Source: Patescibacteria group bacterium
GTDB lineage: Bacteria > Patescibacteriota > Gracilibacteria > UM-FILTER-43-11
Direction of reading: 5' to 3'
Length of the DNA: 64,000 nt
Assembly (NCBI GenBank): GCA_018813295.1
Contig: JAHJBZ010000066.1
Location: forward strand, 11,231 to 75,230
The notes beneath the pieces are model-generated. The model was not told the DNA's origin and made no database searches. It saw nothing but the letters and a program-made list of their open reading frames with translations. Positions 2,013-63,476 of this stretch are shown piece by piece. The position numbers and the translations under genes are program-made. Within the stretch, counting starts at the first letter, position 1, and each line of letters opens with the position of its first letter.

Positions 2013-2078
2013 TTTTAGATCAGTGAAATCAAATTCTGCGTAATGAGACAAATCCGAAAAATCTGCGGTTCAGACAAT
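2013..2078. repeat. Truncated copy (right half only) of the TTGTCTGAAC-TIR element family
   Basis: Ends in aatctgcggttcagacaat (2060-2078), the same terminus type as elements at 44139, 58674, 60904 and 62701. Internal words such as gaaatcaaa are shared with the 60904-61416 copy. No matching left terminus was found. Confidence 0.5.
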
Positions 2079-23134: not shown

Positions 23135-23143
23135 ATAATTTAA

Positions 23144-24718: not shown

Positions 24719-24794
24719 AATATTTGATTAGTATTAAGTTTTAAGTCTTAAGGACTAAGCTAGCTTACAGCTTATGACTTAAGACTTATGACTC

Positions 24795-27022: not shown

Positions 27023-27087
27023 AATCCTTTAATTAAGCAATATTATTAAATCAATTTAGGGCATGTTTGTAAATTGGAATTTAGAGT

Positions 27088-27115
27088 TTGTAAATTGTAA
27101 ATTGTAAATTGTAAA
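27088..27115. repeat. Perfect heptamer tandem repeat (ttgtaaa x4)
   Basis: ttgtaaattgtaaattgtaaattgtaaa in the cobO/nrdJ divergent spacer, with an extra copy at 27067-27073. Confidence 0.95.
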
Positions 27116-27161
27116 TTTGCGTTTATTAAAGCCAGAATCCAGCCACAACAATTCACAAAAA

Positions 27162-30854: not shown

Positions 30855-31619
30855 ATGTACAAAAAAGAATTCCAAATCACAGAGAATGTAAGCAACAACT
30901 CATTTTCATACGACAAGCGCACTAATCCGACAATAACTGTTCCAGATATTGTAGACGGAAGTATTGATGATGTGAAAATCGGAGACAAAATTGTTTTTGA
31001 GGATTTTGATGAAGATGGAAATCTAAAATCATGCACTGGTCTACAAAATTTCATTAGGACAGTTCATCCGACAACAAAAAAACCAGTGATAATTGTTGAT
31101 AATCACAATCATGTTTTTTATTTTTGGTATGAAGCCAGAACAAACGGGCAAATAAATAATGGAGCTACTCTTATACACATCGACCAACACAAAGACATCC
31201 GAAAACCGGCAGAAAAACTAAACAACTCCGACGATTTAAATAGTGTTTTCAAATACACCAACTCTATCTTAAACGTCGGAAACTACATCCCCCCTGCGAT
31301 GGAAGAAGGGCTTGTTAGAAAAGTAATTCCGATCACCAGTGAATCAGAGATAAATAAAAACACCCCCGAAGGCGCGCCGGTCCCCCCTGATAAGGGGGTT
31401 AGGGGGTTTGCGCGCCTTCGGGGAACCGAATCATCGTTAATCGTTAACATTGATCTCGACTTCTGGGCACCGGAAATGGATTATATAGATAATAAATTAA
31501 AAATCGACACTACAAAAAAATGGATGGAAAAAGCCGACCTAATCACAATCGCAACCAGCCCGTTTTTCATAGATCAAGAATTAGCATTAAAAGTTTTAAA
31601 GGAATTACTTTATAATTAG
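30855..31619 (+). CDS. UPF0489-like (arginase/deacetylase-fold-like) protein carrying an in-frame palindromic insertion
   Basis: 254 aa. VIIVDNHNHVFYFWYEA, LIHIDQHKDIRKP and NIDLDFW resemble UPF0489 motifs. This assignment has low confidence. Confidence 0.6.
   Translation: MYKKEFQITENVSNNSFSYDKRTNPTITVPDIVDGSIDDVKIGDKIVFEDFDEDGNLKSCTGLQNFIRTVHPTTKKPVIIVDNHNHVFYFWYEARTNGQINNGATLIHIDQHKDIRKPAEKLNNSDDLNSVFKYTNSILNVGNYIPPAMEEGLVRKVIPITSESEINKNTPEGAPVPPDKGVRGFARLRGTESSLIVNIDLDFWAPEMDYIDNKLKIDTTKKWMEKADLITIATSPFFIDQELALKVLKELLYN
31364..31423. repeat. 60-bp GC-rich palindromic element inserted in frame in a coding sequence
   Basis: A perfect 14-bp inverted repeat, ccccgaaggcgcgc (31364-31377) / gcgcgccttcgggg (31410-31423), encloses a cccccctgataaggggg hairpin. 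The 20-mer gataagggggttagggggtt (31389-31408) is identical to 39342-39361. Confidence 0.85.
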
Positions 31620-31620
31620 C

Positions 31621-31664
31621 TTAATCCTTAAGACTTAATCCTTAAGACTTAATCCTTAAGACTT
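31621..31664. repeat. 14-bp tandem repeat (ttaatccttaagac x3) abutting a start codon
   Basis: Three perfect copies end 2 nt before ATG 31665. The same word family occurs at 24740-24794 and 39373-39400. Confidence 0.95.
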
Positions 31665-33155: not shown

Positions 33156-33156
33156 A

Positions 33157-33236
33157 ACGAATAGTAGCTCGTATTGTAGTCCACTATTCGAGCCACAACT
33201 TGAGCCACCATTCGAGCCATCCGCCGCAGGCGGGGA
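33157..33236. repeat. Dispersed 12-mer mirror-repeat spacer (cgaatagtagct / gagccacaa family)
   Basis: acgaatagtagctcgtattgtagtccactattcgagccacaacttgagccaccattcgagccatccgccgcaggcgg. It is related to 47382-47476 and 54523-54568. Confidence 0.85.
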
Positions 33237-34129: not shown

Positions 34130-35761
34130 ATGCCTCAATGCACAACTTGCTCCAATTCATTTGAAACCCGAGATGCAGATCGTACGTTCTACAAAAAATT
34201 TGATGCACCGGATCCCAAAAAATGCCCGGACTGCCGTTTGCAGCAACGATTAAATTTTCGTAATGAACGTACTCTCTACAAACGTACCAGTAATCTTTCC
34301 GGAAAAAGTATGATCTCCATTTATTCTCCGGAAAGCAAATATCAAATATATAGTACTGACGAATGGTGGAGTGACAAATGGGATGGCCTGAACTACGGAC
34401 GAGAATTTAATTTCAGCAGGCCTTTCTTTGAGCAGTTCCAAGATTTACTATTAAGAATACCTCGCATTACCCTTTTTAATGTAAACCCAACCAACAGTGA
34501 ATACTGCCAACAGGCTTATAACAACAAAGGATGTCATTTATGTATGGTGGTAACAGATTGTGAAGATTGCATGTATATCTCTCATACCAACCACGCTAAA
34601 GATTCCTTTGATTCAACATACACGCATCACATGGAATTATGTTATGAATGCTTAGATAGCAACCAGCTATATGGATGTATAGAATGCCAGAGTTGCCAGG
34701 GCTCAAACGGACTTATGTATTGTTACGATTGTATTGGATGCAGAGATTGTTTTGGTAGCTGGGGACTGCGTAACAAAGAAAATTACATTTTTAATAAACG
34801 CTATTCAAAAGAAGAATATAAAGAAAAAATAAATTCACTTGAATTAGGTAAATCACCTAATTATCTAGAATACAAAAAATACTTTCAGGATTTGATGAAA
34901 ACTCGGGTACACCGGGCTAGCCGAAATATTAATATTTTTGACTCAACTGGAAACTACCTGATCAATGCGCAAAACTGTCATGAATGTTTTGATTCATTTC
35001 AAATTCAAGACTGCGCGTATTGCACATGGATTTTTGAAAGCAATAACTGCCAGGATGTATATGGACTTGGTGGTAGTGGATGGGTATATAACTGTCTTGG
35101 AAATGAGAAGGTGAACAATGTAGCTTTCAATACTTTTGTTTCTGATGGTGGAGATATTTATTACAGCGATCTTTGTTTTTATTCTATGAATTTATTTGGC
35201 TGTGCTGGATTAAGGAACAAAAAACATTGTATTTTTAATAAGCAATATTCACCGGAAGAATATGAAAAATTAAGAGCTCAGATAATCGAACATATGAAAA
35301 AAACAGGTGAATGGGGTGAGTTTTTCCCGGTTTCACTTTCACCTTTTGCATACAACGAGACCGCCGCTCAAAATTATTTCCCATTAACAAAAGAGGAGGC
35401 AGAAAAACAGGGATTTGCATGGAAAACTTCAAAGGAAATTGATCAAAAAGAGCAAATATATAAAATACCGGAAGATATTAAAGACGTTCAGGATGACATC
35501 ACTGAAAATATTGTGGTTTGCTCATGCAATAAGCGTTATCAAATCGATCCAGTGGAATTAAAGTTTTATAAAGAAAAGAATATTCCTATTCCACTCAAAT
35601 GTCATGACTGCCGTTACGCAGATCGTTTAAAGCTGAGAAACCCACGAAAACTATACAAACGAAATTGTGCCAAATGTAATGCCGAAATTCAGACAACTTA
35701 TGCGCCGGATAGACCGGAAGTGATATACTGCGAGCAGTGCTATTTAAAAGAAGTGGATTAA
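34130..35761 (+). CDS. Cys-rich zinc-ribbon/repeat protein, paralog A (543 aa)
   Basis: N- and C-terminal CxxC...FYxK...P.P..CP.CR...R...RN.R.LYKR modules. The middle is internally duplicated Cys-rich repeats, each ending GLRNK..(I/C)(F/I).NK.YS.EEYE. It also carries the conserved GEWGEFFP.S.SPFAYNET.AQ.YFP motif. Confidence 0.8.
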   Translation: MPQCTTCSNSFETRDADRTFYKKFDAPDPKKCPDCRLQQRLNFRNERTLYKRTSNLSGKSMISIYSPESKYQIYSTDEWWSDKWDGLNYGREFNFSRPFFEQFQDLLLRIPRITLFNVNPTNSEYCQQAYNNKGCHLCMVVTDCEDCMYISHTNHAKDSFDSTYTHHMELCYECLDSNQLYGCIECQSCQGSNGLMYCYDCIGCRDCFGSWGLRNKENYIFNKRYSKEEYKEKINSLELGKSPNYLEYKKYFQDLMKTRVHRASRNINIFDSTGNYLINAQNCHECFDSFQIQDCAYCTWIFESNNCQDVYGLGGSGWVYNCLGNEKVNNVAFNTFVSDGGDIYYSDLCFYSMNLFGCAGLRNKKHCIFNKQYSPEEYEKLRAQIIEHMKKTGEWGEFFPVSLSPFAYNETAAQNYFPLTKEEAEKQGFAWKTSKEIDQKEQIYKIPEDIKDVQDDITENIVVCSCNKRYQIDPVELKFYKEKNIPIPLKCHDCRYADRLKLRNPRKLYKRNCAKCNAEIQTTYAPDRPEVIYCEQCYLKEVD

Positions 35762-35844
35762 TTTCTGCCTACGGCGGAGACCTAATTGGTGACCTAATAG
35801 GTGTACACCAATAAGGCCACCAATTAGGCCACCCATTAGAAATT
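35762..35844. repeat. 12-mer mirror-repeat leader (gacctaattggt / accaattaggcc)
   Basis: gacctaattggt gacctaataggt gt-ac accaataaggcc accaattaggcc acccattag, ending 6 nt before ATG 35845. Confidence 0.85.
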
Positions 35845-37476
35845 ATGAAAAACTGTAAAAACTGCACCACCGAATTCGAAATAGCAGAACAGGATCGTAA
35901 ATATTACGAAAAAATTAACGTGCCCGAACCTACACACTGCCCAACATGCCGCCAACAACGGAGGTATGCAATTCGCAATGAAAGAAATCTATACAAAAGA
36001 AAATGTGGCATGTGTAATAAGGAATTGGTATCGATGTATTCCCCAGACAAACCATTCCCTATTTACTGCCCAAGCTGTTGGTGGGAGGGTGATTGGCATG
36101 GGACTAGCTACGCACAGGAATTTGATTTTAGTAGACCCTTTTTTGATCAGTTTAGAGATTTACAAAACAAAGTTCCACGAATCAGTTTGTATTTAGTTAA
36201 TTCGGAAAATTGTGACTACTGCAACTTTGTTGGTGACTGCAAAAATTGTTATTTAACGTTCGGATCTGTTTATTCAGAAGATTGTTTATACGGTTCTGCA
36301 TACTATTCAAAAAACTGCATGGACAATTTGGTGACCAGAGAATGTGAACTATGTTATGAGTGCACGGACAGCAGAAAATTATATAACTGTTTGTATTGCC
36401 AGGACTGCTATCATTCAGATCATCTGCTTTTTTGTTATGACCTGCAGGGGTGTAGTGAGTGTATTGCATGTGCGGGGCTAAGAAATAAAAAATATCACAT
36501 CGAAAATAAGCCTTATTCAAAAGAGGAATATGAAGCAATCAAATCTAAAATAAATTTTTGCAGCTCAAAGCAATTAGAAGGTGTACATGAGCAGCTAAAG
36601 AAGATGAAATTGGAAATTCCACATCATTTTATGCCAAATAGCAACGTACAAAACGTAAGCGGTACTCATATTTACAATTCAAAAAACACCCACCACTCAT
36701 TTTATGTAGATAGATGTGAAGACTGTGCATACTGCATGCAGGTTGTAGACTTAAAAGATTGCTACGACAACAATTACACCGAAGAAAATGAATTGTGTTA
36801 TGAATATCTTGGAATGTATGGGGCGAAAAATACTTTTTACTCAACTTTCTCCAGACATTCATACGATGTTTTTTATTCTGAATACACTATTAACGCCAAA
36901 AATTTATTTGGATGTAGCAATATTCACAAAAAGGACTTTTGTATTTTGAACAAGCCTTACTCAGAAGAAGAATATAAAGAACTTGTTCCAAAAATAATCG
37001 ACCATATGAAGGAAGCCGGTGAATGGGGAGAATTTTTTCCTATAAGCCACTCACCATTCGCATACAACGAAACAGTTGCGCAAGAATATTTCCCAATGGA
37101 AAAGGGGGGAGCCACTGGCAAGGGTTACAAGTGGAAAGACCCAGACCAAAAAGAATGCCAACCTCAAACAACCGAAGTTCCTGTAGAGATTAAAGATGTT
37201 CAGGATTCAATTTTAAATGAAGTTTTAGCTTGCAGCGACTGCAAAAAAAATTACAAAATAATTTCGCAGGAATTAAAATTTTATCGCAATATACACCTGC
37301 CTATTCCAAAAAAATGCCCCGACTGCAGACATAAAAACAGACTCTCGCTCCGCAATCCTCGCAAACTATTCAGCAGGCAGTGTAATAAGTGTAATACAGA
37401 TATTCAGACAACTTATGCACCAGACAGACCGGAGAAAGTTTATTGTGAAAAATGCTATCACGAATCGGTATACTAA
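35845..37476 (+). CDS. Cys-rich zinc-ribbon/repeat protein, paralog B (543 aa)
   Basis: Same length and architecture as 34130-35761, roughly 40% identical by eye. It retains the second N-terminal ribbon (RKCGMCN...YCPSCWW) that is degenerate in paralog A. Confidence 0.8.
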   Translation: MKNCKNCTTEFEIAEQDRKYYEKINVPEPTHCPTCRQQRRYAIRNERNLYKRKCGMCNKELVSMYSPDKPFPIYCPSCWWEGDWHGTSYAQEFDFSRPFFDQFRDLQNKVPRISLYLVNSENCDYCNFVGDCKNCYLTFGSVYSEDCLYGSAYYSKNCMDNLVTRECELCYECTDSRKLYNCLYCQDCYHSDHLLFCYDLQGCSECIACAGLRNKKYHIENKPYSKEEYEAIKSKINFCSSKQLEGVHEQLKKMKLEIPHHFMPNSNVQNVSGTHIYNSKNTHHSFYVDRCEDCAYCMQVVDLKDCYDNNYTEENELCYEYLGMYGAKNTFYSTFSRHSYDVFYSEYTINAKNLFGCSNIHKKDFCILNKPYSEEEYKELVPKIIDHMKEAGEWGEFFPISHSPFAYNETVAQEYFPMEKGGATGKGYKWKDPDQKECQPQTTEVPVEIKDVQDSILNEVLACSDCKKNYKIISQELKFYRNIHLPIPKKCPDCRHKNRLSLRNPRKLFSRQCNKCNTDIQTTYAPDRPEKVYCEKCYHESVY

Positions 37477-39361: not shown

Positions 39362-39394
39362 CTCACCTTTTGCTTAATTCTTAAGACTTACTCC

Positions 39395-40579
39395 TTAAGA
39401 CTTTTTTCCCGCTTCCAATTCCTCCATTACATATTCTGTCACCTCATCAGCAATCTTTCCTTTAATATAACCATAAGCTTTTAGATCTATCTTAACCGCA
39501 GCAAGCTGAATAGCAGGAGATGGATTATCAATCAATTCAATTAAAAGTGGATTTTGTTTAAGTGCTTCTAATACAACCCTTTCATCTGACTCCATACCCA
39601 TTGCAAGAATATGCCTAAGTGCACCCACATCATTAGAAACAGCAGCAAACTGATTTAATGCATCTGCATCTCGGAAATGTTTAATTAATGATCCATTTTT
39701 ACCAAGCAGCTCATATAGCTCTACCGGTGACAATGAAAAATTATTGATAAGAGGAATTGCATCTAAGTTTTTTTCAAGCGCTTTAGCTTGGACATCTTTT
39801 GATGGATTTTCAATAAGCTCAACCAATCTCCAATCCTTCTCAACCGCAAAAAGTTGAACTGATTGCTCTGGGGTGATTCCGGCCTCAAGAATAACTCTGA
39901 ACATTTGAGGATTCTTCTCAACTGCAAGGAGTTGAACCGCTGTTGACGGAGTTACTACGGAACTAACAAGAGTTTCAAATGCCGCTATATCCTTCTTAAC
40001 TAATGCAATTTGAACTGGTTCTTCTGGAATTATTCCGACACCAACAATAGCCTCAAATGCCTCCACACCATGCTGTTCAACTGCAGCTTTTTGAGCTTTT
40101 TCTGATGGGATAATCTCCATTGCAATAATACGCCTAAGCGCTTCCAATCCACTTTCCTGGTTAGAGGAAAGGCTAACGGCAACAACTTGCAAATCTTCGT
40201 CTTGGGCTAAATCACCAGCATATTTAATCGCCCTTCCATCTTGCCCAACTGCTTCACGTATACGTTTCTCCGATGGAGTTATTCCCATTCTAATGATTTG
40301 ACCAAGAAAAGCTCCATTTGCCTCAATCACAGCATCTTGACCTGCCTCCGATATATTCTGCATACTTTTTACAATTCTACCCCTACTTAATTCAATAAGT
40401 TCAATCATTCTGTCGTCAGGTACTTCTACACCTGTAGCCAGTACATTTTTCAGTGCAGTACGATCCGCAGCCGGAGCTGACTGCTCTGGTTGACCTGATC
40501 TAGCTGCCTGACCTGATTGATCCTGCTTATTGTCACCATCTTCTGCTTGTGGTCTTGTTACTGTTCTTTTTATAGCCAT
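39395..40579 (-). CDS. Tandem helical-repeat protein (HEAT/DUF4116-like periodicity)
   Basis: 394 aa. The N-terminal ~45 residues are disordered and Q/A/G-rich. About nine ~36-aa repeats follow with a recurring (I/T)P(S/E)E..Q.(A/L)AV motif. The stop codon lies inside a 14-mer repeat unit. Confidence 0.7.
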   Translation of the reverse strand: MAIKRTVTRPQAEDGDNKQDQSGQAARSGQPEQSAPAADRTALKNVLATGVEVPDDRMIELIELSRGRIVKSMQNISEAGQDAVIEANGAFLGQIIRMGITPSEKRIREAVGQDGRAIKYAGDLAQDEDLQVVAVSLSSNQESGLEALRRIIAMEIIPSEKAQKAAVEQHGVEAFEAIVGVGIIPEEPVQIALVKKDIAAFETLVSSVVTPSTAVQLLAVEKNPQMFRVILEAGITPEQSVQLFAVEKDWRLVELIENPSKDVQAKALEKNLDAIPLINNFSLSPVELYELLGKNGSLIKHFRDADALNQFAAVSNDVGALRHILAMGMESDERVVLEALKQNPLLIELIDNPSPAIQLAAVKIDLKAYGYIKGKIADEVTEYVMEELEAGKKS

Positions 40580-44138: not shown

Positions 44139-44282
44139 TTGTCTGAACTGTGATTTATGTGATTGAAATGATTTTTTTGATTTGTATTTTCGTAGAGACG
44201 CATTGCAATGCGTCTCTACGAATGTTTTATATATAAAAATCATATCCATCACTGTAATCATGAGAAATCACAGTTCAGACAA
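44139..44282. mobile_element. MITE-like element, copy A (144 bp)
   Basis: Termini are ttgtctgaactgtgatt (44139-44155) and aatcacagttcagacaa (44266-44282), a perfect 17-bp TIR. The central hairpin is cgtagagacgcattgcaatgcgtctctacg. It starts directly after a TAA stop. Confidence 0.8.
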
Positions 44283-44290
44283 TAAACAAA

Positions 44291-46306: not shown

Positions 46307-47380
46307 ATGAATCCAAATATCACCAAAATTTTTGACCTGGCCGTTAACCGTAATGCTTCTGATATTCACTTTCAGACAGGTAAAAAACCTGTAATCAGAA
46401 TTAACGGAAAACTGTATTTAGTGGACGACGCGGAAATATTCCAGTTAATGGAAAATACTCCGGAATTCCAGGAGCTTATAAACAAAGAACAACAAAAGTA
46501 TTTTGTCGAAAACGGAAACGTTGATTTTGCTTTCACATATGACAACGACTATCGCTTTAGAGGTAATGTGTATAGACAGCAAAACGGACTTTCTCTGAGC
46601 CTTCGCATTATACGAAATAGAATTCTTAGCTTTGAACAACTTAACTTGCCCCCAATATTTAAAGACATTGCGGAGAATTATCGCCAAGGCTTCTTTTTGG
46701 TTGTCGGGCCAACAGGACAGGGGAAAACAACAAGCATGGCAGCCATCTTGAGTCATATCAATAAGCATAGAGAAGAGCATATTGTTACTATTGAAGACCC
46801 GATTGAATATATAATTCAAAATGAAAAAAGCATAATTGAACAACGAGAAGTTGGACTGCATACTTCGTCTTTTCAAAGTGCCCTAAGGTCTTCTATGAGA
46901 CAGGATCCGGATATTATTATCATTGGGGAAATGAGGGATCAGGAAACTATGCAAGCTGCATTAACACTTGCAGAAACGGGTCATTTAGTTTTCTCAACAA
47001 TGCATACTAACAATGCTCCTCAAACAATCGATAGAATAATTGACGCATTTCCGGAACATAAACAAAAACAAATCCGCATTCAATTGGCCAGCACTCTAAC
47101 CGGTGTGATCTCTCAGCGCTTAATTCCGGGAGTAAAAGATGAATTAGTATATGCATATGAACAATTACTGACTACGGATGCAGTACGCAACATTATTCGA
47201 ACTGAAAAAATTGAACAAATCTACAATGCTCTACAAACCGATGAGGAGAGCGGTTTTATAAGACTTGAAAAATGTCTCGCAGAACTTGTAAAAGAAGAAA
47301 AAATATCTAAAGAAAATGCTTTAGCATTTTCTACAAGCCGAGAACTTGTTGATATGTTTTTAGAACTTCAACCAGCCTAA
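46307..47380 (+). CDS. pilT: Type IV pilus retraction ATPase PilT
   Basis: 357 aa. Walker A GPTGQGKTT, plus EDPIEY, RQDPDIIIIGEMRD and TGHLVFSTMHT. Confidence 0.9.
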   Translation: MNPNITKIFDLAVNRNASDIHFQTGKKPVIRINGKLYLVDDAEIFQLMENTPEFQELINKEQQKYFVENGNVDFAFTYDNDYRFRGNVYRQQNGLSLSLRIIRNRILSFEQLNLPPIFKDIAENYRQGFFLVVGPTGQGKTTSMAAILSHINKHREEHIVTIEDPIEYIIQNEKSIIEQREVGLHTSSFQSALRSSMRQDPDIIIIGEMRDQETMQAALTLAETGHLVFSTMHTNNAPQTIDRIIDAFPEHKQKQIRIQLASTLTGVISQRLIPGVKDELVYAYEQLLTTDAVRNIIRTEKIEQIYNALQTDEESGFIRLEKCLAELVKEEKISKENALAFSTSRELVDMFLELQPA

Positions 47381-47381
47381 T

Positions 47382-47476
47382 ACGAATAGTAGCTCGAATA
47401 GTAGCTCAAGTTGTGGCTCGAATGGTGGACCACAATACGAGCAACTATCCGAGCCACAATACGAGCCACCATCCGA
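47382..47476. repeat. Dispersed 12-mer mirror-repeat spacer (cgaatagtagct / cacaatacgagc family)
   Basis: cgaatagtagct cgaatagtagct caagttgtggct cgaatggtggac | cacaatacgagc aactatccgagc cacaatacgagc caccatccgata. The halves are about 70% reverse-complementary. Confidence 0.9.
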
Positions 47477-57422: not shown

Positions 57423-57983
57423 ATGGGGCTCAAAAATAAAAAAGGGTTTACTCTTATAGAACTCTTAATTGTCATCGGTATCATCGCAATCCTTGCTGGT
57501 ATCGTTCTTGTTGCTGTAAATCCAGCACAACAATTTGGTAAAGCTAACGATTCTGAACGTAAATCAGAAATCGGTACTCTTCTGAGTGCAGTTTACCAAT
57601 ATCAAACCTCTCCAACAGCACGTGGCGCATTACCAGAGTGTTCACTTGGTGCTGTACCTGCTGATACAGCAATTCCTGAATGTGATGATCCAACCGGACC
57701 AGGAGGCATATTTGACGGAGCCTTAGAGCTCGGAACACCTGCTGATGCAGACACTTATGACTGTTCAACTGCTTTAATTCCTTCATATCTTCGTGAGATA
57801 CCTATCGACCCAACCAGTGCTACATACGACGCAACTGCAACCGGTTATTACATTTGTCAGGATACAAGCGGAGCAGTATCCCGTGTTTACGTACTTGCCG
57901 TTGGCGCAGAAGTATATACAGATGATGGTGGCTGTGAACATCCAGATGGATCAGGAGATCCTGTAATGTGTGTTTCCGGCTGA
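57423..57983 (+). CDS. Type IV major pilin, paralog 1
   Basis: MGLKNKKG|FTLIELLIVIGIIAILAGIVLVAV class III signal, start at internal ATG 57423. C-terminal Cys pair. TGA stop. Confidence 0.9.
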   Translation: MGLKNKKGFTLIELLIVIGIIAILAGIVLVAVNPAQQFGKANDSERKSEIGTLLSAVYQYQTSPTARGALPECSLGAVPADTAIPECDDPTGPGGIFDGALELGTPADADTYDCSTALIPSYLREIPIDPTSATYDATATGYYICQDTSGAVSRVYVLAVGAEVYTDDGGCEHPDGSGDPVMCVSG

Positions 57984-58006
57984 TGCAAATTGAATTAACT
58001 ACTAAA

Positions 58007-58038
58007 GCCCCATCCCGCTAAGCGGGGTGGGGCTTTTT
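58007..58038 (+). terminator. Rho-independent terminator after pilin 1
   Basis: gccccatcccgc-taa-gcggggtggggc followed by ttttt. The one wobble is U.G on the + strand. Confidence 0.8.
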
Positions 58039-58104
58039 GCTATATAAATTTTGATTTATTTCACTTAAATGATAGACTTTACAAGAACTACAATCAAAAA
58101 ATTC

Positions 58105-58671
58105 ATGCTGAACAAAACCAAAAAAGCCTTTACCCTTATAGAACTTTTAATTGTTGTCGGTATTATTATGATACTTGCAGGTATCGTTCTTTTTACTGTT
58201 AATCCTGCGGTACAGTTTGGTAAAGCTAACGATTCTGAACGCAAAACTGAGATAAGCGCTATTGCAAATGCTATTAATCAATATTCCGCCTCCCCTCACG
58301 CAAGAGGCGCCTTGCCAGAATGCTTACTCGGAGCAACGCCTACTGCAACTGCTATCCCAGAATGTGATACTGACGGTCTTGGTATAGGCGTAGGTAATGG
58401 TGGTTTCGAAGGTGCTGTTGAACTAGGCACTCCAGGTGATGCAGACACTTACGACTGCTCAAGCACCTTAATACCATCTTTTTTACGCGAAATACCTATT
58501 GATCCAGATAGCGCATATGACGAAACAGCAACCGGTTACTACATTTGCCAAGACACAACTGGCCTTACATCCAAAATTTATGTAATTGCAGTTGAGGCAG
58601 AAGTGTTTACAGATGATGGTGGATGCGAAGTACCAGGCAGCACCACACCAACGATGTGCGTTTCTGGGTAA
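58105..58671 (+). CDS. Type IV major pilin, paralog 2
   Basis: MLNKTKKA|FTLIELLIVVGIIMILAGIVLFTV. High identity to paralog 1 over the whole length by eye. Ala at position -1. Confidence 0.9.
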   Translation: MLNKTKKAFTLIELLIVVGIIMILAGIVLFTVNPAVQFGKANDSERKTEISAIANAINQYSASPHARGALPECLLGATPTATAIPECDTDGLGIGVGNGGFEGAVELGTPGDADTYDCSSTLIPSFLREIPIDPDSAYDETATGYYICQDTTGLTSKIYVIAVEAEVFTDDGGCEVPGSTTPTMCVSG

Positions 58672-58673
58672 AA

Positions 58674-58830
58674 TTGTCTGAACTGTGATTCTCTTGATTA
58701 AATGATTTCTATGATTATTTAAACGGTTTTTCTGTAGAGACGTCCCGCTTAGCGGGACGTCTCTACGATATTTGTTTATATAAAAAATCATGACCATCAG
58801 TACAATCATCAATAATCACAGTTCAGGCAA
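58674..58830. mobile_element. MITE-like element, copy B (157 bp)
   Basis: Termini are ttgtctgaactgtgatt (58674-58690) and aatcacagttcaggcaa (58814-58830), with one mismatch. The central hairpin gtagagacgtcccgcttagcgggacgtctctac is at 58734-58766. It fills the gap between the convergent pilin 2 and recG ends, abutting the recG stop. Confidence 0.8.
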
Positions 58831-60903
58831 TTAAGATTCTTCCATCTTCTTCCTCAATTTTTGCAGCATATTAGCCAAAACCGGATACTTTTTTAAATCC
58901 GGTGACTTTTCAACAATAACTTCAGCCGCCTTTCTCACCCTATCAAGCAAAATCCCATCTAGTAAATTGGCTATTTTTAAGTCTGGTAAACCAGATTGGC
59001 GCACACCGTACACTTCACCAGGACCGCGGAGCTTAAGATCAATTTCCGCTAACTTAAAACCATCGGTGTGATCAACCATTGCCTTTAAGCGCGTAAAAGT
59101 AAGATCTGAACTGGAGTCTGTATATAAAAAACAATAGGATTGAACCGATCCACGCCCTACCCTGCCCCTGAATTGATGAAGCTGAGAAAGGCCAAAGCGA
59201 TCTGCGCCTTCAATTAGCATCATTGTTGCATTCGGCACATCAATTCCCACTTCAATTACAGATGTGGAGACAAGAATTTGCACTTCACCATCTTTAAACT
59301 TCTGCATCACAGCCTCTTTTTCAGCTGATTTTAACTTTCCATGCAGTAAACCGATTTTAAATTTAGGAAATACATCATGCAACTGCTCATACTCCTTTTT
59401 AACAGACTTTACCTCAAGTACATCAGAATCATCAATTAAAGGACAAATTACATAAACCTGCTCCCCCTTCTCAACTTTCCCCTCTATAAAACGATAAACA
59501 GTTTCACGATGTTCCGGTGGCACAATTTTAGTGGTAATCGGCAAACGACCAGGTGGCATTTCGTTTATGACGGAAAGATCCTGATCGCCATAAGCTACAA
59601 GCGCAAGAGTTCGTGGAATCGGCGTAGCAGTCATATTTAAAACATGAGGACTGCCTTGCTGAACAAGAACTTCGCGCTGTTTAACCCCAAAACGATGCTG
59701 CTCATCGATAACAATTAATCCAAGATTAGGAAATTCAACACCTTCTTGTATCAAAGCATGCGTACCAATAGCAATATCAACCTGACCAGACTTAATTCCA
59801 TCCAAAACCGTTCTTTTTTCTTTAGCTTTTAGTGATCCAACGAGCAATTGTATGTTAATCGGATTTTTTGATGGAAATTTTTTCTCAAAAACTTCCATAA
59901 ACTTACTAATAGACACTAAATGTTGACGCGCTAAAACCTCTGTAGGAGCCATAATTGCTGTTTGGTACCCATTTTTCACCATTTGAAGTAACGCCATAAC
60001 CGCTACAACTGTTTTTCCGGACCCCACATCCCCTTCCAAGAGTCGCATCATAGGAAAAGGGCACTCCAAATCCTTTAAAATCTCATAAATTGTAACTTTT
60101 TGAGCACCTGTTGGCGTAAAAGGAAGCGTAGAGAAAAAATCTTTCACAAATTCAGGGTCAAGTGGCACCCCGCCAACCGGACTTTCGGATGAACGACTCT
60201 CTTTCCATTCCTCTTTTGCCTTTACGGCATTAAGTTGCAATAAAAATAACTCCTCATAACCTAATCTATCCTGCGCAGCTTTAAGTTTTTTGGTGTTTGA
60301 GGGAAAATGTACCTCGCGAATAGCCTCGGATTTAGGCATTAAACCTTCCTCTTTAATAATTTCCTCCAGCAAAACCTCTTCAAACTCCTTTGTAAGAAAA
60401 AGCAGAGGATAAATTTTTTCACGTAACCATTTTGAAGTAATTACTTCATGTTGAGGGTAAATTGGAACGGTTGCGCCAGCATGAATCTGCACTTCTTTAA
60501 TCGTTTCTACAGTCGGACTTTGGAGTATTAACTTTCCATATTGATATTGAACCTTACCTGCGACAATTACCTCTTTATCCATAGGTAACATGCGGATCAG
60601 GTGTGGCTGATTAAACCAAACAACCTCACATTCAGAGCCGTGATCATCGTAAAACATCGCCCTAACAAGCTTCATTCGACGATTCTTTGTCGAAACAAGT
60701 TTGATTCCATGTAAAAACCCCTTAGTTGTAATGATTTCACCATCTTTCGCCTCCCAAATCTTCTTAAATTGAGACAAATCCTCATATCCACGCGGAAAAT
60801 AAAGCAATAAATCGCTCACAGTATATAAGCCCATTTCCTTTAGAGCTAAAATATACTCCTTTTTAGTACTTAACGCCTCTGAAAGTGGGGTATTTAGATT
60901 CAT
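58831..60903 (-). CDS. recG: ATP-dependent DNA helicase RecG
   Basis: 690 aa. Wedge/OB N-terminus and helicase motifs GDVGSGKT, DEQHRFG, TATPIPRT and QLHQFRGRVGRG. Confidence 0.95.
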   Translation of the reverse strand: MNLNTPLSEALSTKKEYILALKEMGLYTVSDLLLYFPRGYEDLSQFKKIWEAKDGEIITTKGFLHGIKLVSTKNRRMKLVRAMFYDDHGSECEVVWFNQPHLIRMLPMDKEVIVAGKVQYQYGKLILQSPTVETIKEVQIHAGATVPIYPQHEVITSKWLREKIYPLLFLTKEFEEVLLEEIIKEEGLMPKSEAIREVHFPSNTKKLKAAQDRLGYEELFLLQLNAVKAKEEWKESRSSESPVGGVPLDPEFVKDFFSTLPFTPTGAQKVTIYEILKDLECPFPMMRLLEGDVGSGKTVVAVMALLQMVKNGYQTAIMAPTEVLARQHLVSISKFMEVFEKKFPSKNPINIQLLVGSLKAKEKRTVLDGIKSGQVDIAIGTHALIQEGVEFPNLGLIVIDEQHRFGVKQREVLVQQGSPHVLNMTATPIPRTLALVAYGDQDLSVINEMPPGRLPITTKIVPPEHRETVYRFIEGKVEKGEQVYVICPLIDDSDVLEVKSVKKEYEQLHDVFPKFKIGLLHGKLKSAEKEAVMQKFKDGEVQILVSTSVIEVGIDVPNATMMLIEGADRFGLSQLHQFRGRVGRGSVQSYCFLYTDSSSDLTFTRLKAMVDHTDGFKLAEIDLKLRGPGEVYGVRQSGLPDLKIANLLDGILLDRVRKAAEVIVEKSPDLKKYPVLANMLQKLRKKMEES

Positions 60904-61416
60904 ATTGTCTGAACCACTGATTACGCAGATTAAAAGATTACGCTGATTGTATTTTTATACTATTAGCCACTCTTTTAAACTGCAAACTCCTTGATCCAAA
61001 ATTAATAAGTAATCCTGTTTCTAAATTATAGGCTTCAAGATAATTTATCGCCTGGGCCAAATGAACATCTTCTATCTCTGTAATTGCTTTTAGCTCCACC
61101 ATAATACAGCCTTCTATCAGAAAATCCACACGTCTCGTTCCTACGGTATAGCCACGATAACAAATACTCATTTCATGCTCACGTGAATAGCTCAGACCAT
61201 ACTCAGTAAATTCTAATGCTAACGCCCTTTGATAAACTACCTCCTGAAACCCATTCCCAAGATCAGAGTGCACTTTCATAGCAGCACCTATTATTTTCTT
61301 TGTTATATCTGAATATTTATATCGTTGTTTATTCATAATATCCATTTATTAACTATTTAATTAGTAATTTAATCTGAGAAATCAAAAAAATCAGTGTAAT
61401 CAGTGGTTCAGACAAT
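60904..61416. mobile_element. TIR-bounded 513-bp element carrying a GxxExxY gene
   Basis: Perfect 21-bp terminal inverted repeat attgtctgaaccactgattac (60904-60924) / gtaatcagtggttcagacaat (61396-61416). The terminus has the same TTGTCTGAAC...GATT type as the short elements. The left end touches the recG start codon. Confidence 0.75.
60938..61345 (-). CDS. GxxExxY family protein (PD-(D/E)XK nuclease fold)
   Basis: 135 aa. Signature GNGFQEVVYQRAL (GxxExxY) and RVDFLIEGCIMVELK (D...E.K-type nuclease core). Confidence 0.85.
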   Translation of the reverse strand: MDIMNKQRYKYSDITKKIIGAAMKVHSDLGNGFQEVVYQRALALEFTEYGLSYSREHEMSICYRGYTVGTRRVDFLIEGCIMVELKAITEIEDVHLAQAINYLEAYNLETGLLINFGSRSLQFKRVANSIKIQSA

Positions 61417-61529
61417 TAAATAATAGTAAACAAATGTTCACCCGTCAACAGAAAAAGACTACTTCCTATTCATTGACATTTAACCATATATAATGTATAA
61501 TAAATAGATAAACATTAAAAAATAAAACC

Positions 61530-62579
61530 ATGAAAACATCATTTTTTAAAGAAAGATATTTTATTTATCTTGCAGAAGCTGAGCCTCCAGCTGCCGAGGA
61601 AGGAGAACATGCCGAGGAAGGAGAAGGAGATGAAGAGGTAGCAGCTGAAGAAGAAATGTCTGACACTCTTAAAAAAGGATTAAGAGCGATCGACAGTACA
61701 ATTCCCCCACGACCATCAATACGCCCTGCAATAGAACAACCTGAATATTCAGCAGAACAAGCAATTTCAGAGGAGCTAGATACAGCTAAAGCAGAAGAAT
61801 TAGATAGGGAAAAGGCACGTAGACCAATGTTAAAAACTGAGCAAGAAAGAGCAAACGAAGAAATGGAAAGGATTAGAGATCGGCAAACAACACCCGGCAG
61901 AAAATTTGCCGTTGAAATGGCATACCATCCACAATTTAGAGATACAATTAGGAATCTAATTGTAGAACATTGGAACAAAATGAGCCCAGAGGAAAAAGCA
62001 GGACAAAACATGTGGGATTATATCCATGAAAATATGAGCCGGGTCGCAGATTACAATGCTGAATTTGGAGGCAGACTAGATGCAGTCGCAATGGGAAAGA
62101 AAAAAGAAAGCATACCGACACTTGAAGGCGAGGAAGAAGGAACAGCAATTGCCGAAGGAACAAGGCCTGCAGAAACAGAACCTAAAGCTGTAACTGCTGC
62201 TACAGAAACAGAGCCACAAACTGAACTGGCAGCTGCAGCAGAAGCGTACGGAGTTAATCTAGAAGTAGAGCCAGAAGTAGCAATTAAACAAGCTGAAGAA
62301 ACGCTGGAAAGCATTAGAGAAAATATAGAAGACAGCCTCTATAACAAATTAGCAGAATTATACCCGGAAAAAACATTCGATATTAATATATCTGCAAGTA
62401 CAGAATACCCAGGAAGAATTGCTGTCAGCTTCTCAAATAACGAAATTGGAACTTATACAGGAAATTGGGGGAGGAGCCTTAACGGAATCAATCAGCACAT
62501 ATCAAATCTAACCACAGCCAAAATCGCAAGCAAAATAAAAAGAGAAGGAGAAGATGCTACCGTTGAAGACACAGGGTAA
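61530..62579 (+). CDS. Acidic low-complexity hypothetical protein
   Basis: 349 aa, E/A-rich N-terminal and central tracts, no recognisable domain. Confidence 0.55.
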   Translation: MKTSFFKERYFIYLAEAEPPAAEEGEHAEEGEGDEEVAAEEEMSDTLKKGLRAIDSTIPPRPSIRPAIEQPEYSAEQAISEELDTAKAEELDREKARRPMLKTEQERANEEMERIRDRQTTPGRKFAVEMAYHPQFRDTIRNLIVEHWNKMSPEEKAGQNMWDYIHENMSRVADYNAEFGGRLDAVAMGKKKESIPTLEGEEEGTAIAEGTRPAETEPKAVTAATETEPQTELAAAAEAYGVNLEVEPEVAIKQAEETLESIRENIEDSLYNKLAELYPEKTFDINISASTEYPGRIAVSFSNNEIGTYTGNWGRSLNGINQHISNLTTAKIASKIKREGEDATVEDTG

Positions 62580-62700: not shown

Positions 62701-62849
62701 TTGTCTGAACTATGATTTTTTATGATTAAATGATGAGCATGATCGTTATAAACCAAAAATTACAGCAAAACGAAAATACCGTGATACAAATCATAAAAAT
62801 CATTTAATCACATAAATCATAGTTCAGACCACTATCACAGTTCAGACAA
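62701..62849. mobile_element. MITE-like element, copy D (149 bp) with duplicated right terminus
   Basis: The left terminus is ttgtctgaactatgatt (62701-62717). There are two right termini, aatcatagttcagac (62815-62829) and atcacagttcagacaa (62834-62849). It abuts the stop codon of the V-ATPase D gene. Confidence 0.75.
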
Positions 62850-63476
62850 TTAAGCAGCCGCCTGAATCTTCGCCTTAACAACCATGGTATTAATAATCGC
62901 ACCGCGTTCCATTTCTCCAAGCTTCATTTGAATAAACTTAATCGTATCCTTTAAATCAGGAATCATGCGGTATTCAAGTGCATTTACACGGCGACGGGTC
63001 TTTTCAAGTTCCTCCGCTAAAGCCTCAGCGGATTTTTCAATTTCAGCCAACTTGATAAGCAGGGGGAAAGTGTCCTGAAAAGATTGCAATGCGATATCTA
63101 ATTCACCGCTGGTTTGCAAAAAACCATAACTTACAACTTCTCCTTCGGTTTCCAGTTTAAAATGAGGAATGCGAACTGACATTACATTTTTGGTTTCAAC
63201 TTTTAGTTCAGTTTTAGCAGTGGAATAAAGAAGTGCACCTTCCAGCATTTCCTCTTCCATCAAAGAATTAGCACGAATGAAGTTTTTAAATGCAGCACCG
63301 AGTTTTTGCTCTACTTCTTCACGAACAGCTTTAGCTTCGCGTATCACTTCCATAAATTTCTGCATCAAACCATCCTGCTTATCTTTAAGCAGTTTATGTC
63401 CACGCTTTGCACTCTTAATCTTCTTCTTAAGAGTTAGCAGAGCCATCCTGGTTGCATTAACATTCAATATCGCCAT
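62850..63476 (-). CDS. ntpD: V-type ATP synthase subunit D
   Basis: 208 aa. N-terminus NATRMALLTLKKKIKSAKRGHKLLKDKQD and C-terminus RRVNALEYRMIPDL are typical of V/A-type subunit D. Confidence 0.9.
   Translation of the reverse strand: MAILNVNATRMALLTLKKKIKSAKRGHKLLKDKQDGLMQKFMEVIREAKAVREEVEQKLGAAFKNFIRANSLMEEEMLEGALLYSTAKTELKVETKNVMSVRIPHFKLETEGEVVSYGFLQTSGELDIALQSFQDTFPLLIKLAEIEKSAEALAEELEKTRRRVNALEYRMIPDLKDTIKFIQMKLGEMERGAIINTMVVKAKIQAAA

What the first reader, a model, noticed from the sequence alone, without database searches (positions are those of the whole stretch)
60904..61416. GxxExxY (PD-(D/E)XK) gene enclosed by perfect 21-bp terminal inverted repeats that match a family of short MITE-like elements
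The 135-aa GxxExxY gene sits inside a 513-bp segment bounded by attgtctgaaccactgattac and gtaatcagtggttcagacaat, which are perfect over 21 of 21 positions. The same terminus architecture (TTGTCTGAAC + 3-4 nt + GATT) bounds three gene-less 144-157-bp elements at 44139, 58674 and 62701. It also appears as a solo end at 2060-2078. This is the autonomous/non-autonomous pattern of a transposon and its MITEs. However, the only cargo is a small PD-(D/E)XK-fold protein whose family has no established function. Either the GxxExxY protein is the nuclease that mobilises these elements, or it is hitch-hiking cargo. The left TIR abuts the recG start codon, so the recG 5' UTR is provided by the element.
Basis: partly seen in the sequence, partly recalled or inferred. 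Interest (0 to 1): 0.75.

Follow-up and report, generated by a model that had tools for sequence, protein, structure and literature searches.

The report
Tiny nuclease gene cassette with MITEs
A 513-bp cassette upstream of recG, carrying only a small nuclease gene between inverted-repeat ends, belongs to an undescribed and apparently mobile element family found in many bacterial phyla, along with gene-less miniature copies.

Summary
A perfect 21/21 inverted repeat (26/28 when extended) bounds window 60904-61416. It encloses a 135-aa GxxExxY / PF13366 protein with an intact PD-(D/E)XK catalytic set. Three gene-less hairpin elements and one solo end in the window share the terminus TTGTCTGAAC + 3-4 nt + GATT.

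The pattern is not local. In loci from over ten phyla, 44 of 78 close GxxExxY homologues have inward-facing GTCTGAAC...GATT termini on both sides, and 65 of 78 have at least one. Inverted pairs fall into two size classes: 63-340 bp without a gene, and 462-714 bp, all with GxxExxY. No second recurrent cargo appeared.

Evidence for mobility:
- an internally deleted copy beside a full copy;
- long direct repeats of the flank (17-46 bp) around several elements;
- presence/absence differences upstream of recG among related Peregrinibacteria;
- lower synonymous divergence than the flanking genes.

Elements sit tightly between genes. The downstream ATG lies 2-4 nt from the terminus in 20 of 44 loci, as with recG here.

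That the nuclease itself moves the element is inferred, not shown. I found no published description. It resembles REPtron/TIRtron systems and ORF-bearing 23S rRNA intervening sequences, but with a different protein. Interest is high.

The parts
61389..61416 (-). 5' terminal inverted repeat, in gene orientation. The core is TTGTCTGAAC-CACT-GATT.
   Evidence: I23. It closes a 26-bp stem with the other arm in the RNA minimum-energy fold.
61370..61405 (-). Array of four 9-nt units ending in GATT (cactGATTa cactGATTt ttttGATTt ctcaGATTa), between the terminus and the start codon.
   Evidence: Across 96 arms the spacing between successive GATT is 9 nt (127 cases), 8 nt (42) or 10 nt (20).
60938..61345 (-). 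GxxExxY protein gene, 135 aa. It is a PD-(D/E)XK nuclease with G32xxE35xxY38, D74 and E84-x-K86.
   Evidence: AlphaFold model pLDDT 88. The best structural match is Cas4 SSO0001.
60904..60948 (-). 3' terminal inverted repeat (60904-60931) plus AATC units. These overlap the stop codon (60938-60940) and the last codons of the gene.
58831..60903 (-). recG. Its ATG (60901-60903) directly abuts the element's 3' terminus.
   Evidence: The same N-terminus MNL(N/D)TPL starts at the ATG in the empty site of L325 and in L203.
61420..61448 (-). Sigma-70-like promoter TTGACG-17-TATTAT. It ends 3 nt (61417-61419) before the 5' terminus, so the transcript would begin inside the terminus.
   Evidence: The flank is conserved in L003.
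44139..44283 (.). Gene-less hairpin element (MITE). It has T-type termini, GATT/AATC arms and a central GTAG...CTAC palindrome at 44192-44219. It lies between a TAA stop codon and a terminator.
   Evidence: -43.4 kcal/mol, z -12.
58674..58829 (.). Gene-less hairpin element filling the gap between the convergent pilin and recG stop codons. Its central GTAG...CTAC palindrome is at 58734-58766.
   Evidence: A MITE occupies the same gap in L003, but not in L202, L203, L204 or L325.
62701..62851 (.). Gene-less element with a duplicated right terminus (GAC ends at 62829 and 62848). It abuts the V-ATPase D stop codon.
2024..2078 (.). Solo right end (AATC units followed by GGTTCAGACAAT) with no left partner.

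Best explanation
Window 60904-61416 is one gene-bearing copy of a widespread, compact, inverted-repeat-bounded mobile element family, found here alongside its gene-less derivatives.

Anatomy of the element:
- a conserved terminus, (T)TGTCTGAAC;
- an arm of 2-5 units, mostly 9 nt long, each ending in GATT;
- one ORF for a 125-140 aa GxxExxY PD-(D/E)XK nuclease;
- the mirror-image arm and terminus.

The minimal size is about 465 bp. In minimal copies only about 30 nt separate the terminus from the start codon, so I infer there is usually no internal promoter. It sits co-oriented inside transcription units, packed between the upstream gene's stop codon and the downstream gene's start codon. It is presumably transcribed by read-through, or, as here, from a promoter that ends 3 nt before its terminus. 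It therefore supplies the downstream gene's entire 5' UTR.

Shown:
- the terminus-gene association holds across phyla;
- there are two size classes, gene-less and gene-bearing;
- MITEs arise by internal deletion;
- the orthologous recG site is occupied in some relatives and empty in others;
- several copies are flanked by long (17-46 bp) direct repeats of the target;
- the gene is under purifying selection with invariant catalytic residues.

Inferred: the GxxExxY protein is the element's own enzyme. It would recognise the GTCTGAAC/GATT ends, perhaps as a hairpin or cruciform, and cut there and/or make widely staggered nicks in the target. Host replication and repair would then complete insertion. 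Gene-less copies would be mobilised in trans.

The window's copy is an old resident of the recG leader in this Peregrinibacteria lineage. It was possibly refreshed by transfer between relatives.
For: Terminus-gene association. 44 of 78 loci have termini on both sides and 65 of 78 on at least one, against 0.027 hits/kb/strand background. The same ends flank copies lying between hsdS and hsdR (Chloroflexi), between cas12a and rhuM-cas4-cas1-cas2 (Bacteroidetes), and between V-ATPase D and recG (Peregrinibacteria).

Cargo and derivation.
- Every pair of 462-714 bp contains GxxExxY.
- The terminus-seeded metagenome scan gave about 57 gene-less pairs and 12-13 GxxExxY copies. Its larger 'pairs' were ordinary host genes lying between two separate elements.
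- L077 has a full copy plus an internally deleted copy, each followed by the same 42-nt flank.

Target-duplication-like repeats adjoin the termini:
- L092, 46 nt (45/46);
- L019, 24 nt;
- L072, 21 nt;
- L074, 18 nt;
- L032, 18 nt, with synonymous differences only.
8 of 48 elements score above the 99th percentile of the null.

Orthologous-site polymorphism at recG. The gene is present in the window, L202 and L003. L203 has a gene-less partial element abutting the same ATG. L325 is cleanly empty.

Divergence, window versus L003.

| Gene | dS | dN/dS |
|---|---|---|
| GxxExxY | 0.72 | 0.23 |
| V-ATPase D | 1.7 | 0.06 |
| recG | 2.4 | 0.06 |

Cross-phylum copies are saturated (median pS 0.81).

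Protein. E35, D74, E84 and K86 are invariant in 43 sequences. The fold is Cas4/RecB/lambda-exonuclease-like.

Placement. The downstream gene is co-oriented in 39 of 44 loci. Its ATG lies 2-4 nt from the terminus in 20 of 44. The upstream stop codon lies within -13..+6 nt of the left terminus in most loci that have a nearby co-oriented upstream gene, and in 7 it is the TGA inside GTCTGAAC.
Against: - No biochemical or genetic evidence links the protein to the termini. PD-(D/E)XK enzymes hydrolyse DNA and are not known to perform strand transfer alone; the one well-established transposition example I know of, TnsA of Tn7, needs a DDE partner.
- No target duplication is detectable around any of the four elements in the window.
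- The window's gene-less copies are only about 75% alike, and they use a different terminus subtype from the resident gene copy. Two MITE positions are shared with L003. So there is no sign of recent activity in this genome.
- Many of the flank repeats around gene-less copies belong to tandem arrays of [element + spacer]. These could arise by replication slippage rather than insertion.
- Polymorphism was seen only between species-level relatives (79-86% RecG identity), not between strains.
- The terminus association was tested only for the subfamily with at least 63% identity to the query.
Confidence: 0.55

Rival explanations
1. The element family is mobile, but GxxExxY is passenger cargo, for example a defence, anti-defence or addiction function. 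An unlinked enzyme (a host or IS transposase, or a RAYT/TIRYT-like protein) would recognise the termini and move both the gene-bearing and the gene-less copies.
For: - Gene-less copies outnumber gene-bearing ones by about 5 to 1 in the terminus-seeded scan.
- Copies often sit in defence loci, such as type I R-M and the cas12a operon.
- MITE loops carry GTAG...CTAC palindromes of the type that RAYTs act on.
- No PD-(D/E)XK-only transposase is known.
Against: - GxxExxY is the only recurrent ORF found between the termini.
- Minimal 462-470 bp copies contain nothing else.
- Gene and termini travel together across more than ten phyla, with 65-77% protein identity and an invariant catalytic set.
- There is no PADLOC hit.
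- A passenger would be expected to alternate with other passengers.
Confidence: 0.2
2. This is a domesticated, REPtron/TIRtron-like system. The hairpins are long-lived host-useful structures (terminators, mRNA stabilisers or processing sites). A largely vertically inherited single-copy nuclease gene, itself flanked by the repeats, maintains or occasionally duplicates them.
For: - The gene and two MITE positions are shared by the window and L003 despite 22-28% nucleotide divergence.
- Hairpins lie exactly at gene ends.
- There is only one gene copy in 64 kb.
- The architecture parallels RAYT genes flanked by inverted REPs and TIRYT genes flanked by long inverted repeats (PMC3733652, PMC3116915).
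Against: - Protein identity across phyla is 65-77%, with saturated synonymous sites, and the genomic contexts are unrelated. This indicates horizontal spread.
- dS is lower than in the flanking genes.
- The orthologous site is empty in close relatives.
Confidence: 0.15
3. The element acts mainly at the RNA level, like the ORF-bearing intervening sequences of 23S rRNA. The terminal repeats would form a long stem that RNase III cuts, and the ORF would be dispensable or untranslated.
For: - The termini close a 26-bp stem in the RNA minimum-energy fold (z -6.4).
- The Coxiella intervening sequence has the same layout: a 28-bp terminal stem, tandem heptamers upstream of a ~120-aa ORF, 428-444 nt in total, and excision by RNase III (PMC4990558).
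Against: - The ORF is intact in nearly all copies, with invariant catalytic residues and dN/dS 0.23.
- Flank duplications and internal-deletion derivatives are DNA-level events.
- RNA processing does not explain how the element spreads.
Confidence: 0.07
4. The repeats are not element ends at all. They would be a local operator or terminator palindrome regulating this particular gene.
For: The repeat flanks a single gene, and a promoter-like site lies just upstream.
Against: - Gene-less copies occur elsewhere in the window.
- The same ends flank homologues in unrelated contexts across phyla.
- Empty orthologous sites exist.
Confidence: 0.02

Closest known systems
REPtrons and TIRtrons (RAYT or TIRYT genes with REP/REPIN or long-inverted-repeat families; PMC3116915, PMC3337134, PMC3733652)
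   Same: One small gene is flanked by inverted copies of a repeat that is also dispersed, without a gene, in intergenic regions as hairpin-forming doublets. The gene is probably expressed by read-through. Persistence in a lineage can be long.
   Different: The protein is a PD-(D/E)XK nuclease, not an HUH/Y1 (IS200/IS605-type) transposase. The termini (GTCTGAAC plus GATT units) are conserved across phyla rather than specific to a species. Long flank duplications occur. The gene spreads horizontally.
ORF-bearing intervening sequences of 23S rRNA (Coxiella, Leptospira; PMC4990558)
   Same: Size is about 430-510 bp. A 21-28 bp terminal inverted repeat closes a stem. Short tandem repeats lie between the terminus and a ~120-135 aa ORF. 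The element is embedded in a host transcript and has been called selfish, but no mobility mechanism is known.
   Different: The host site here is an mRNA leader or an intergenic junction, not helix 25 or 45 of 23S rRNA. The ORF is GxxExxY, not the four-helix-bundle S23p. The repeat sequences differ. RNase III processing is untested here.
Classical bacterial IS/MITE pairs (for example Correia/NEMIS, RUP, Nezha)
   Same: Terminal inverted repeats, gene-less derivatives formed by internal deletion, placement next to genes, and co-transcription.
   Different: No DDE, HUH, serine or tyrosine transposase is present. At about 465 bp, the autonomous unit is smaller than any IS I know of (own knowledge). 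Flank duplications are long and variable (17-46 bp), not short and fixed.
Free-standing homing endonuclease genes and Tn7 TnsA
   Same: A small nuclease gene is wedged between conserved genes. PD-(D/E)XK nucleases are known in both roles.
   Different: Insertion sites are many and unrelated, so there is no single cognate target allele. No DDE partner such as TnsB is present. Homing genes lack terminal inverted repeats and miniature derivatives.

Membership tests
GxxExxY protein / PDDEXK_3 (TIGR04256, PF13366) | Profile score above the curated cut-off | tested here: met
   PF13366 scores 130.5 bits against a cut-off of 22. TIGR04256 scores 137.9 bits against a cut-off of 35.
GxxExxY protein / PDDEXK_3 (TIGR04256, PF13366) | GxxExxY motif and the PD-(D/E)XK catalytic residues | tested here: met
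   G32-F-Q-E35-V-V-Y38, D74 and E84-L-K86 are present. E35, D74, E84 and K86 are invariant in alignments of 16 and 43 sequences. The fold matches Cas4, lambda-exonuclease and MGME1.
Class II transposon with MITE derivatives | Terminal inverted repeats shared by gene-bearing and gene-less copies | tested here: met
Class II transposon with MITE derivatives | Gene-less copies derived from the gene-bearing copy by internal deletion | tested here: met
   L077 has a 161-bp copy that keeps the left terminus, about 25 N-terminal codons, the C-terminal tail and the right terminus. It lies beside a full copy.
Class II transposon with MITE derivatives | Target-site duplication | tested here: inconclusive
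   None is detectable around the window's four elements. Long, variable direct repeats of 17-46 bp adjoin the termini in 6-8 of 44 other gene-bearing copies. No fixed length was found. Some repeats around MITEs belong to tandem arrays.
Class II transposon with MITE derivatives | Insertion polymorphism, with filled and empty orthologous sites | tested here: met
   At the recG 5' site the element is present in the window, L202 and L003, a gene-less partial element is present in L203, and the site is empty in L325. This holds only between species-level relatives; the near-identical strains L001 and L002 are both filled.
Class II transposon with MITE derivatives | A transposase of a known catalytic class (DDE, HUH, serine or tyrosine) | tested here: not met
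   The only ORF is a PD-(D/E)XK nuclease, with no other Pfam hit.
REPtron (RAYT + REP/REPIN) | An HUH/Y1 transposase gene flanked by GTAG-tagged REPs | tested here: not met
   The protein is PF13366. The termini are GTCTGAAC, not GTAG-tagged. GTAG...CTAC palindromes occur only in the loops of two MITEs.
23S rRNA intervening sequence | Inserted in helix 25 or 45 of 23S rRNA and excised by RNase III | tested here: not met
   The window has no rRNA, and the element lies between a promoter and recG. RNase III cleavage cannot be tested with these tools.
Integron gene cassette / attC | An attC site with RYYYAAC / GTTRRRY core sites, in an array next to intI | tested here: not met
   GTCTGAAC / GTTCAGAC each carry one extra base relative to the core-site consensus as I recall it (own knowledge). 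Copies are dispersed singly among housekeeping genes.
Free-standing homing endonuclease | A single cognate target sequence, the empty allele | tested here: not met
   Insertion contexts are unrelated (R-M, CRISPR, ATPase/recG and many others).

The most novel reading that the evidence does not exclude
GxxExxY elements would be a new class of autonomous transposon. At about 465 bp they would be the smallest I know of in prokaryotes. Their only protein would be a 125-140 aa Cas4/RecB-like PD-(D/E)XK nuclease acting on hairpin-forming GTCTGAAC/GATT ends. They would insert at gene boundaries inside operons, with long and variable target duplications that keep both neighbouring genes intact. This would assign a function to the whole PF13366/TIGR04256 family (over 15,000 clusters at 50% identity). 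By analogy, it would suggest how ORF-bearing 23S rRNA intervening sequences spread.
Probability: 0.35. Interest if true: 0.9.

Novelty: new variant of a known kind. Interest (0 to 1): 0.78.

Why it matters
PF13366 / GxxExxY is a very large family. It has 15,526 clusters at 50% identity with E <= 1e-3. PGAP names it 'GxxExxY protein', and I found no paper that assigns it a function.

If these genes are the coding part of a conserved, inverted-repeat-bounded cassette with MITE derivatives, several things follow:
- Thousands of 'hypothetical' small genes wedged into R-M, CRISPR and housekeeping operons would be explained.
- The many spurious peptides translated from GATT repeats would be explained too.
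- There would be a concrete substrate to test, the GTCTGAAC/GATT terminus.
- A transposition chemistry not based on DDE, HUH, serine or tyrosine enzymes might be exposed.
- The old question of how ORF-bearing intervening sequences move would gain a model.

There is also a practical point for annotation. The elements supply stop codons, start-codon contexts and whole 5' UTRs to neighbouring genes, as with recG here.

Tried and rejected
- **Rfam.** At gathering thresholds the window has only two tRNAs and no known RNA family for the hairpins.
- **PADLOC and PHROGs.** PADLOC gave no hit. PHROGs gave only a weak hit to a family of unknown function.
- **Sequence search of the PDB.** Nothing useful; the best E-value was 0.18.
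- **Viral contigs.** The terminus pattern gave 108 loci. By my rough estimate that is near chance level. Most were singletons and only one held a GxxExxY gene, so the family is not phage-borne.
- **Short fixed target duplication.** Flank logos show A/T-rich junctions (right flank AAT(G)) but no consistent 2-10 bp duplication.
- **Other cargo.** Inverted pairs of 700-2300 bp without GxxExxY turned out to be ordinary host genes (ThiM-like, HsdM, AAA ATPases and others) lying between two separate elements.
- **A second GxxExxY copy in the window.** tblastn found none. The weak hit at 15601-15687 lies in an unrelated ORF and looks spurious.
- **Literature search for the terminus sequence.** It returned mainly Neisseria transformation papers. 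From memory, the Neisseria DNA uptake sequence GCCGTCTGAA shares GTCTGAA. I judged this a coincidence, given the element's density and its spread across phyla.
- **Missing DNA.** Two RecG relatives, P0123 (86% identity) and P0131, returned gene maps without DNA. Neither map shows a GxxExxY gene upstream of recG, but the junctions could not be read.
- **Integron attC reading.** Rejected; see the membership table.
Full report
**1. The observation**

The sequence shows attgtctgaaccactgattac at 60904-60924 and its exact reverse complement at 61396-61416. The repeat finder extends the arms to 28 nt at 93% complementarity (I23).

Between the arms lies one ORF, 60938..61345 on the minus strand, 135 aa. 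It matches PF13366 PDDEXK_3 (E 4.9e-38) and TIGR04256 GxxExxY (E 1.9e-40). The recG ORF (58831..60903, minus; RecG wedge, DEAD, Helicase_C and RecG_dom3_C domains) starts at the base next to the repeat.

TTGTCTGAACNNNNGATT with up to two mismatches occurs 7 times against 0.84 expected, and 0 of 100 shuffles reach 7. The gene-less elements are 44139-44283, 58674-58829 and 62701-62851, the last with a duplicated right end. A solo end lies at 2060-2078. As single-stranded DNA the three fold into long hairpins (-43.4, -42.2 and -23.8 kcal/mol; z -12, -11.4, -5.9).

Inside each terminus there are 2-5 tandem units ending in GATT. Spacing is 9 nt in 127 cases, 8 nt in 42 and 10 nt in 20.

**2. The window and its relatives**

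The gene content (V-type ATPase, type IV pilins, recG) and the closest public loci point to Candidatus Peregrinibacteria.

- L001 and L002 are the same strain from other samples (99.9% identity), and both are filled.
- L003 (GCA_016932505.1) has the same order, V-ATPase D - GxxExxY - recG - pilin. Nucleotide identity to the window is 72% for recG, 78% for the ATPase and 78% for GxxExxY.

**3. The termini belong to the gene everywhere**

Reading the flanks of homologues from other phyla showed the same ends:
- a Chloroflexi copy between hsdS and hsdR;
- a Bacteroidetes copy between cas12a and rhuM-cas4-cas1-cas2;
- a Kuenenbacteria copy.

I then fetched 80 loci from one genome per species, using an alignment of 16 proteins. 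I scored (GTCTGAAC with up to 1 mismatch)-N1-5-GATT.
- 44 of 78 evaluable loci have inward-facing copies on both sides within 300 nt of the gene.
- 65 of 78 have at least one.
- Density in the far flanks is 0.027 per kb per strand.

Two terminus subtypes occur, and they mix: GTCTGAAC-CNNT-GATT, as in the window's gene copy, and GTCTGAAC-TRT-GATTT, as in the window's gene-less copies. Element length is 462-826 bp with a mode near 465-470 bp. That is a terminus, about 30 nt, the ORF, and a terminus that begins at or just after the stop codon.

The loci represent only the subfamily with 63-77% identity to the query. More distant PF13366 members were not tested.

**4. Gene-bearing and gene-less forms**

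Nearest inverted pairs across all loci are bimodal. Pairs of 63-340 bp have no gene. Pairs of 462-714 bp all contain GxxExxY, one of them as a pseudogene.

I also ran a scan seeded only by the terminus (GTCTGAACCACTGATT-N4-6-GATT) in metagenome contigs. Of the 136 seeds:
- about 57 are gene-less pairs of 400 bp or less;
- 12-13 have a GxxExxY ORF just inside;
- 21 are too close to a contig end;
- the rest are solo ends or carry other internal hairpin modules.

Pairs of 700-2300 bp proved to be ordinary host genes lying between two separate elements. No second recurrent cargo family appeared.

In L077 a full element is followed by a 42-nt flank, and then by a 161-bp copy that keeps the left terminus, about 25 N-terminal codons, the C-terminal tail and the right terminus. 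The same 42 nt follow again. This shows directly that the miniature forms arise by internal deletion.

**5. Evidence for movement**

(a) Flank duplications. Local alignment of the left flank against the right flank found 8 of 48 gene-bearing elements above the 99th percentile of a between-locus null. In most of these the repeats lie within 0-7 nt of the termini:
- L092, 46 nt (45/46);
- L019, 24 nt;
- L072, 21 nt;
- L074, 18 nt;
- L032, 18 nt, whose three differences are all synonymous (LAAYE-stop in both copies).

The duplicated segment is the 3' end of the upstream gene or the 5' end of the downstream gene, so both genes stay intact. Around gene-less copies 22 of 101 exceed the threshold. 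Many of those are tandem arrays of [element + constant 24-53 nt spacer], which slippage could also produce. The window's four elements show no such repeat.

(b) Orthologous-site polymorphism. I looked at RecG relatives with 79-86% identity.

| Locus | State of the site upstream of the recG ATG |
|---|---|
| window, L202, L003 | GxxExxY gene present |
| L203 | gene-less: GC hairpin plus right terminus (...AATGATCATGTTCAGACAA\|ATG), no left terminus found, abutting the same ATG |
| L204 | at most a degenerate remnant |
| L325 | cleanly empty (...aaaatatttagt\|ATGAATTTAGAT) |
| P0123 (86%), P0131 | no gene called; DNA unavailable |

L325 also lacks the recG-pilin MITE. That MITE is present only in the window and L003.

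(c) Divergence, window versus L003.

| Gene | pS | dS | dN/dS |
|---|---|---|---|
| GxxExxY | 0.46 | 0.72 | 0.23 |
| recG | 0.72 | 2.4 | 0.06 |
| V-ATPase D | 0.67 | 1.7 | 0.06 |

Cross-phylum copies are saturated (median pS 0.81), so the gene has no unusual synonymous constraint. The two recG-linked copies therefore share a more recent ancestor than their host genes do. This fits transfer or conversion between relatives at the same site. The left flank, which includes the promoter-like site, is homologous in both.

**6. Placement in transcription units**

The downstream gene is co-oriented in 39 of 44 loci. Its start codon lies 2-4 nt after ...GTTCAGAC in 20 of 44. In the window the junction reads GACAAT|ATG.

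The upstream gene is co-oriented in 25 of 29 loci that have a nearby gene. Its stop codon mostly lies within -13..+6 nt of the left terminus. In seven loci the stop is the TGA inside GTCTGAAC. In the window, three MITE ends read TAA|TTG(T/C)CTGAAC, directly against a stop codon.

In the window a sigma-70-like site (TTGACG-17-TATTAT, 61448-61420, minus strand) ends 3 nt before the 5' terminus. The predicted transcript would therefore start inside the terminus, and the whole recG leader would be the element. As RNA, the termini close a 26-bp stem around the ORF (z -6.4). The GxxExxY stop codon is 34 nt from the recG ATG, so translational coupling is plausible. That is inference.

**7. The protein**

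E35, D74, E84 and K86 are invariant in 43 sequences. The AlphaFold model has mean pLDDT 88. Its best PDB matches are Cas4 SSO0001 (E 7e-4, TM 0.52), lambda-exonuclease-like enzymes, MGME1 and the AdnAB nuclease domains. It looks like a minimal Cas4/RecB-type core.

The family has 15,526 clusters at 50% identity with E <= 1e-3, and 4,172 with E <= 1e-10. Homologues from different phyla are 65-77% identical to the query. With saturated synonymous sites, this indicates strong constraint together with horizontal spread.

**8. Mechanism**

The element family and its autonomous/miniature relationship are well supported. The step from 'only gene in the element' to 'enzyme that moves the element' is inference.

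My best model is this. The nuclease recognises the GTCTGAAC/GATT ends, possibly extruded as hairpins. It cuts there and/or makes widely spaced nicks in the target. Host repair and replication then fill in and produce long, variable duplications. Selection retains only the insertions that leave both neighbouring genes intact, and the redundant duplicate later decays. This would explain the tight packing between stop and start codons.

Rivals:
- passenger cargo moved by an unlinked enzyme;
- a domesticated REPtron/TIRtron-like system;
- an RNA-level role like a 23S rRNA intervening sequence;
- a static regulatory palindrome (contradicted).

**9. Comparison with known systems**

The layout matches REPtrons and TIRtrons, where a single gene is flanked by repeats that also form dispersed gene-less families (PMC3733652, PMC3116915, PMC3337134). 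It also matches ORF-bearing 23S rRNA intervening sequences. The Coxiella example is 428-444 nt, with a 28-bp terminal stem, tandem heptamers upstream of a ~120-aa ORF, and excision by RNase III (PMC4990558).

The element fails membership of each, because the defining protein or the defining site differs. It lacks any known transposase class.

I found no paper that describes GxxExxY function or these termini. The only classification entry lists PDDEXK_3 as 'unknown', with multiple transfers (PMC3424549).

**10. Verdict**

The finding generalises well beyond the window. I rate it a new variant of a known kind, and it could be categorically new if the nuclease proves to be the transposase. Interest 0.78.

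Noticed in passing
window 44192-44219 and 58734-58766; L203 2957-2987: The loops of two gene-less elements hold GC-rich palindromes, GTAGAGACG...CGTCTCTAC. These are GTAG-tagged like classical REPs. The same palindrome sits upstream of recG in L203. Metagenome copies carry other GTAG- or CGTC-tagged hairpins in their loops, so the elements look like composites of two repeat systems.
   Followed up: partly
L086 3387-3961; also L136, L137, L110, L196, L264: There are tandem arrays of gene-less elements alternating with an identical spacer of about 22 to 70 nt (24 nt in L086), a layout like a CRISPR array with the roles reversed. In L086 the elements differ by SNPs and by GATT-unit number, while the three 24-nt spacers are identical. 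The cause could be repeated insertion at one site or slippage; this is unresolved.
   Followed up: partly
window 60938-61345 versus L003 3001-3405: Synonymous divergence of the GxxExxY gene (dS 0.72) is well below that of the flanking recG (2.4) and V-ATPase D (1.7) in the same genome pair.
   Followed up: yes
window 24722-24794, 31616-31671, 39369-39403: A second intergenic repeat family is built from 14-nt units (CTTAATCCTTAAGA-like). It occurs in direct and inverted copies and is unrelated to the GTCTGAAC family.
   Followed up: no
window 33145-33227 and 47370-47476: Arrays of 12-nt units (GAGCCACNAYTC-like) form a 60-nt, 90% inverted repeat with arms about 14 kb apart.
   Followed up: no
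window 15771-15907, 23142-23172, 26700-26746, 27067-27129: There are more intergenic tandem or palindromic repeats built from 7-nt units (TTGTAAA / TTTGAAT / GATTACAAAATT). This genome's intergenic regions hold several distinct short-repeat families.
   Followed up: no
window 9362-9430 and 10177-10245: A 69-nt direct repeat (78%) occurs about 815 bp apart. The second copy (10177-10245) runs into the low-coordinate end of tRNA-Asp (10237-10313, minus strand). This could mark an old integration site.
   Followed up: no
window 57431-58636: Two adjacent paralogous type IV pilin genes are 73-75% identical over three blocks (repeats D1, D6, D9). They lie just upstream of the 58674 MITE.
   Followed up: no
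window 34746-36981: Four copies of an 80-nt coding repeat (65-70% identity) are spaced 444, 1268 and 444 nt apart. This suggests a tandem pair of two-domain paralogues.
   Followed up: no
L005 and L006, about 2900-3560: The last ~40 nt of cas12a (encoding KTNKAWLNFVQ) occur twice: just before the GxxExxY element, and about 75 nt after it. The block of element plus rhuM is shared by two different cas12a loci.
   Followed up: partly
L021 1290-3433: A 2.1-kb inverted terminus pair encloses a Fic-motif ORF (HPFNDGNGR) together with a GxxExxY gene. It may be chance or a composite element.
   Followed up: no
protein representatives P0247, P0264, P0269 and others: Some family members are 250-390 aa long with two matched stretches. 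These are tandem-fused double GxxExxY domains, which hints that the single-domain protein works as a dimer.
   Followed up: no
window 61530-62579: The 349-aa acidic ORF between the element and V-ATPase D has no Pfam hit. It is absent from that position in L003 and L204, whereas two other relatives (P0123's contig, L325) carry a different minus-strand gene there. A perfect 12/12 promoter-like site (61473-61501) lies just upstream of it.
   Followed up: partly
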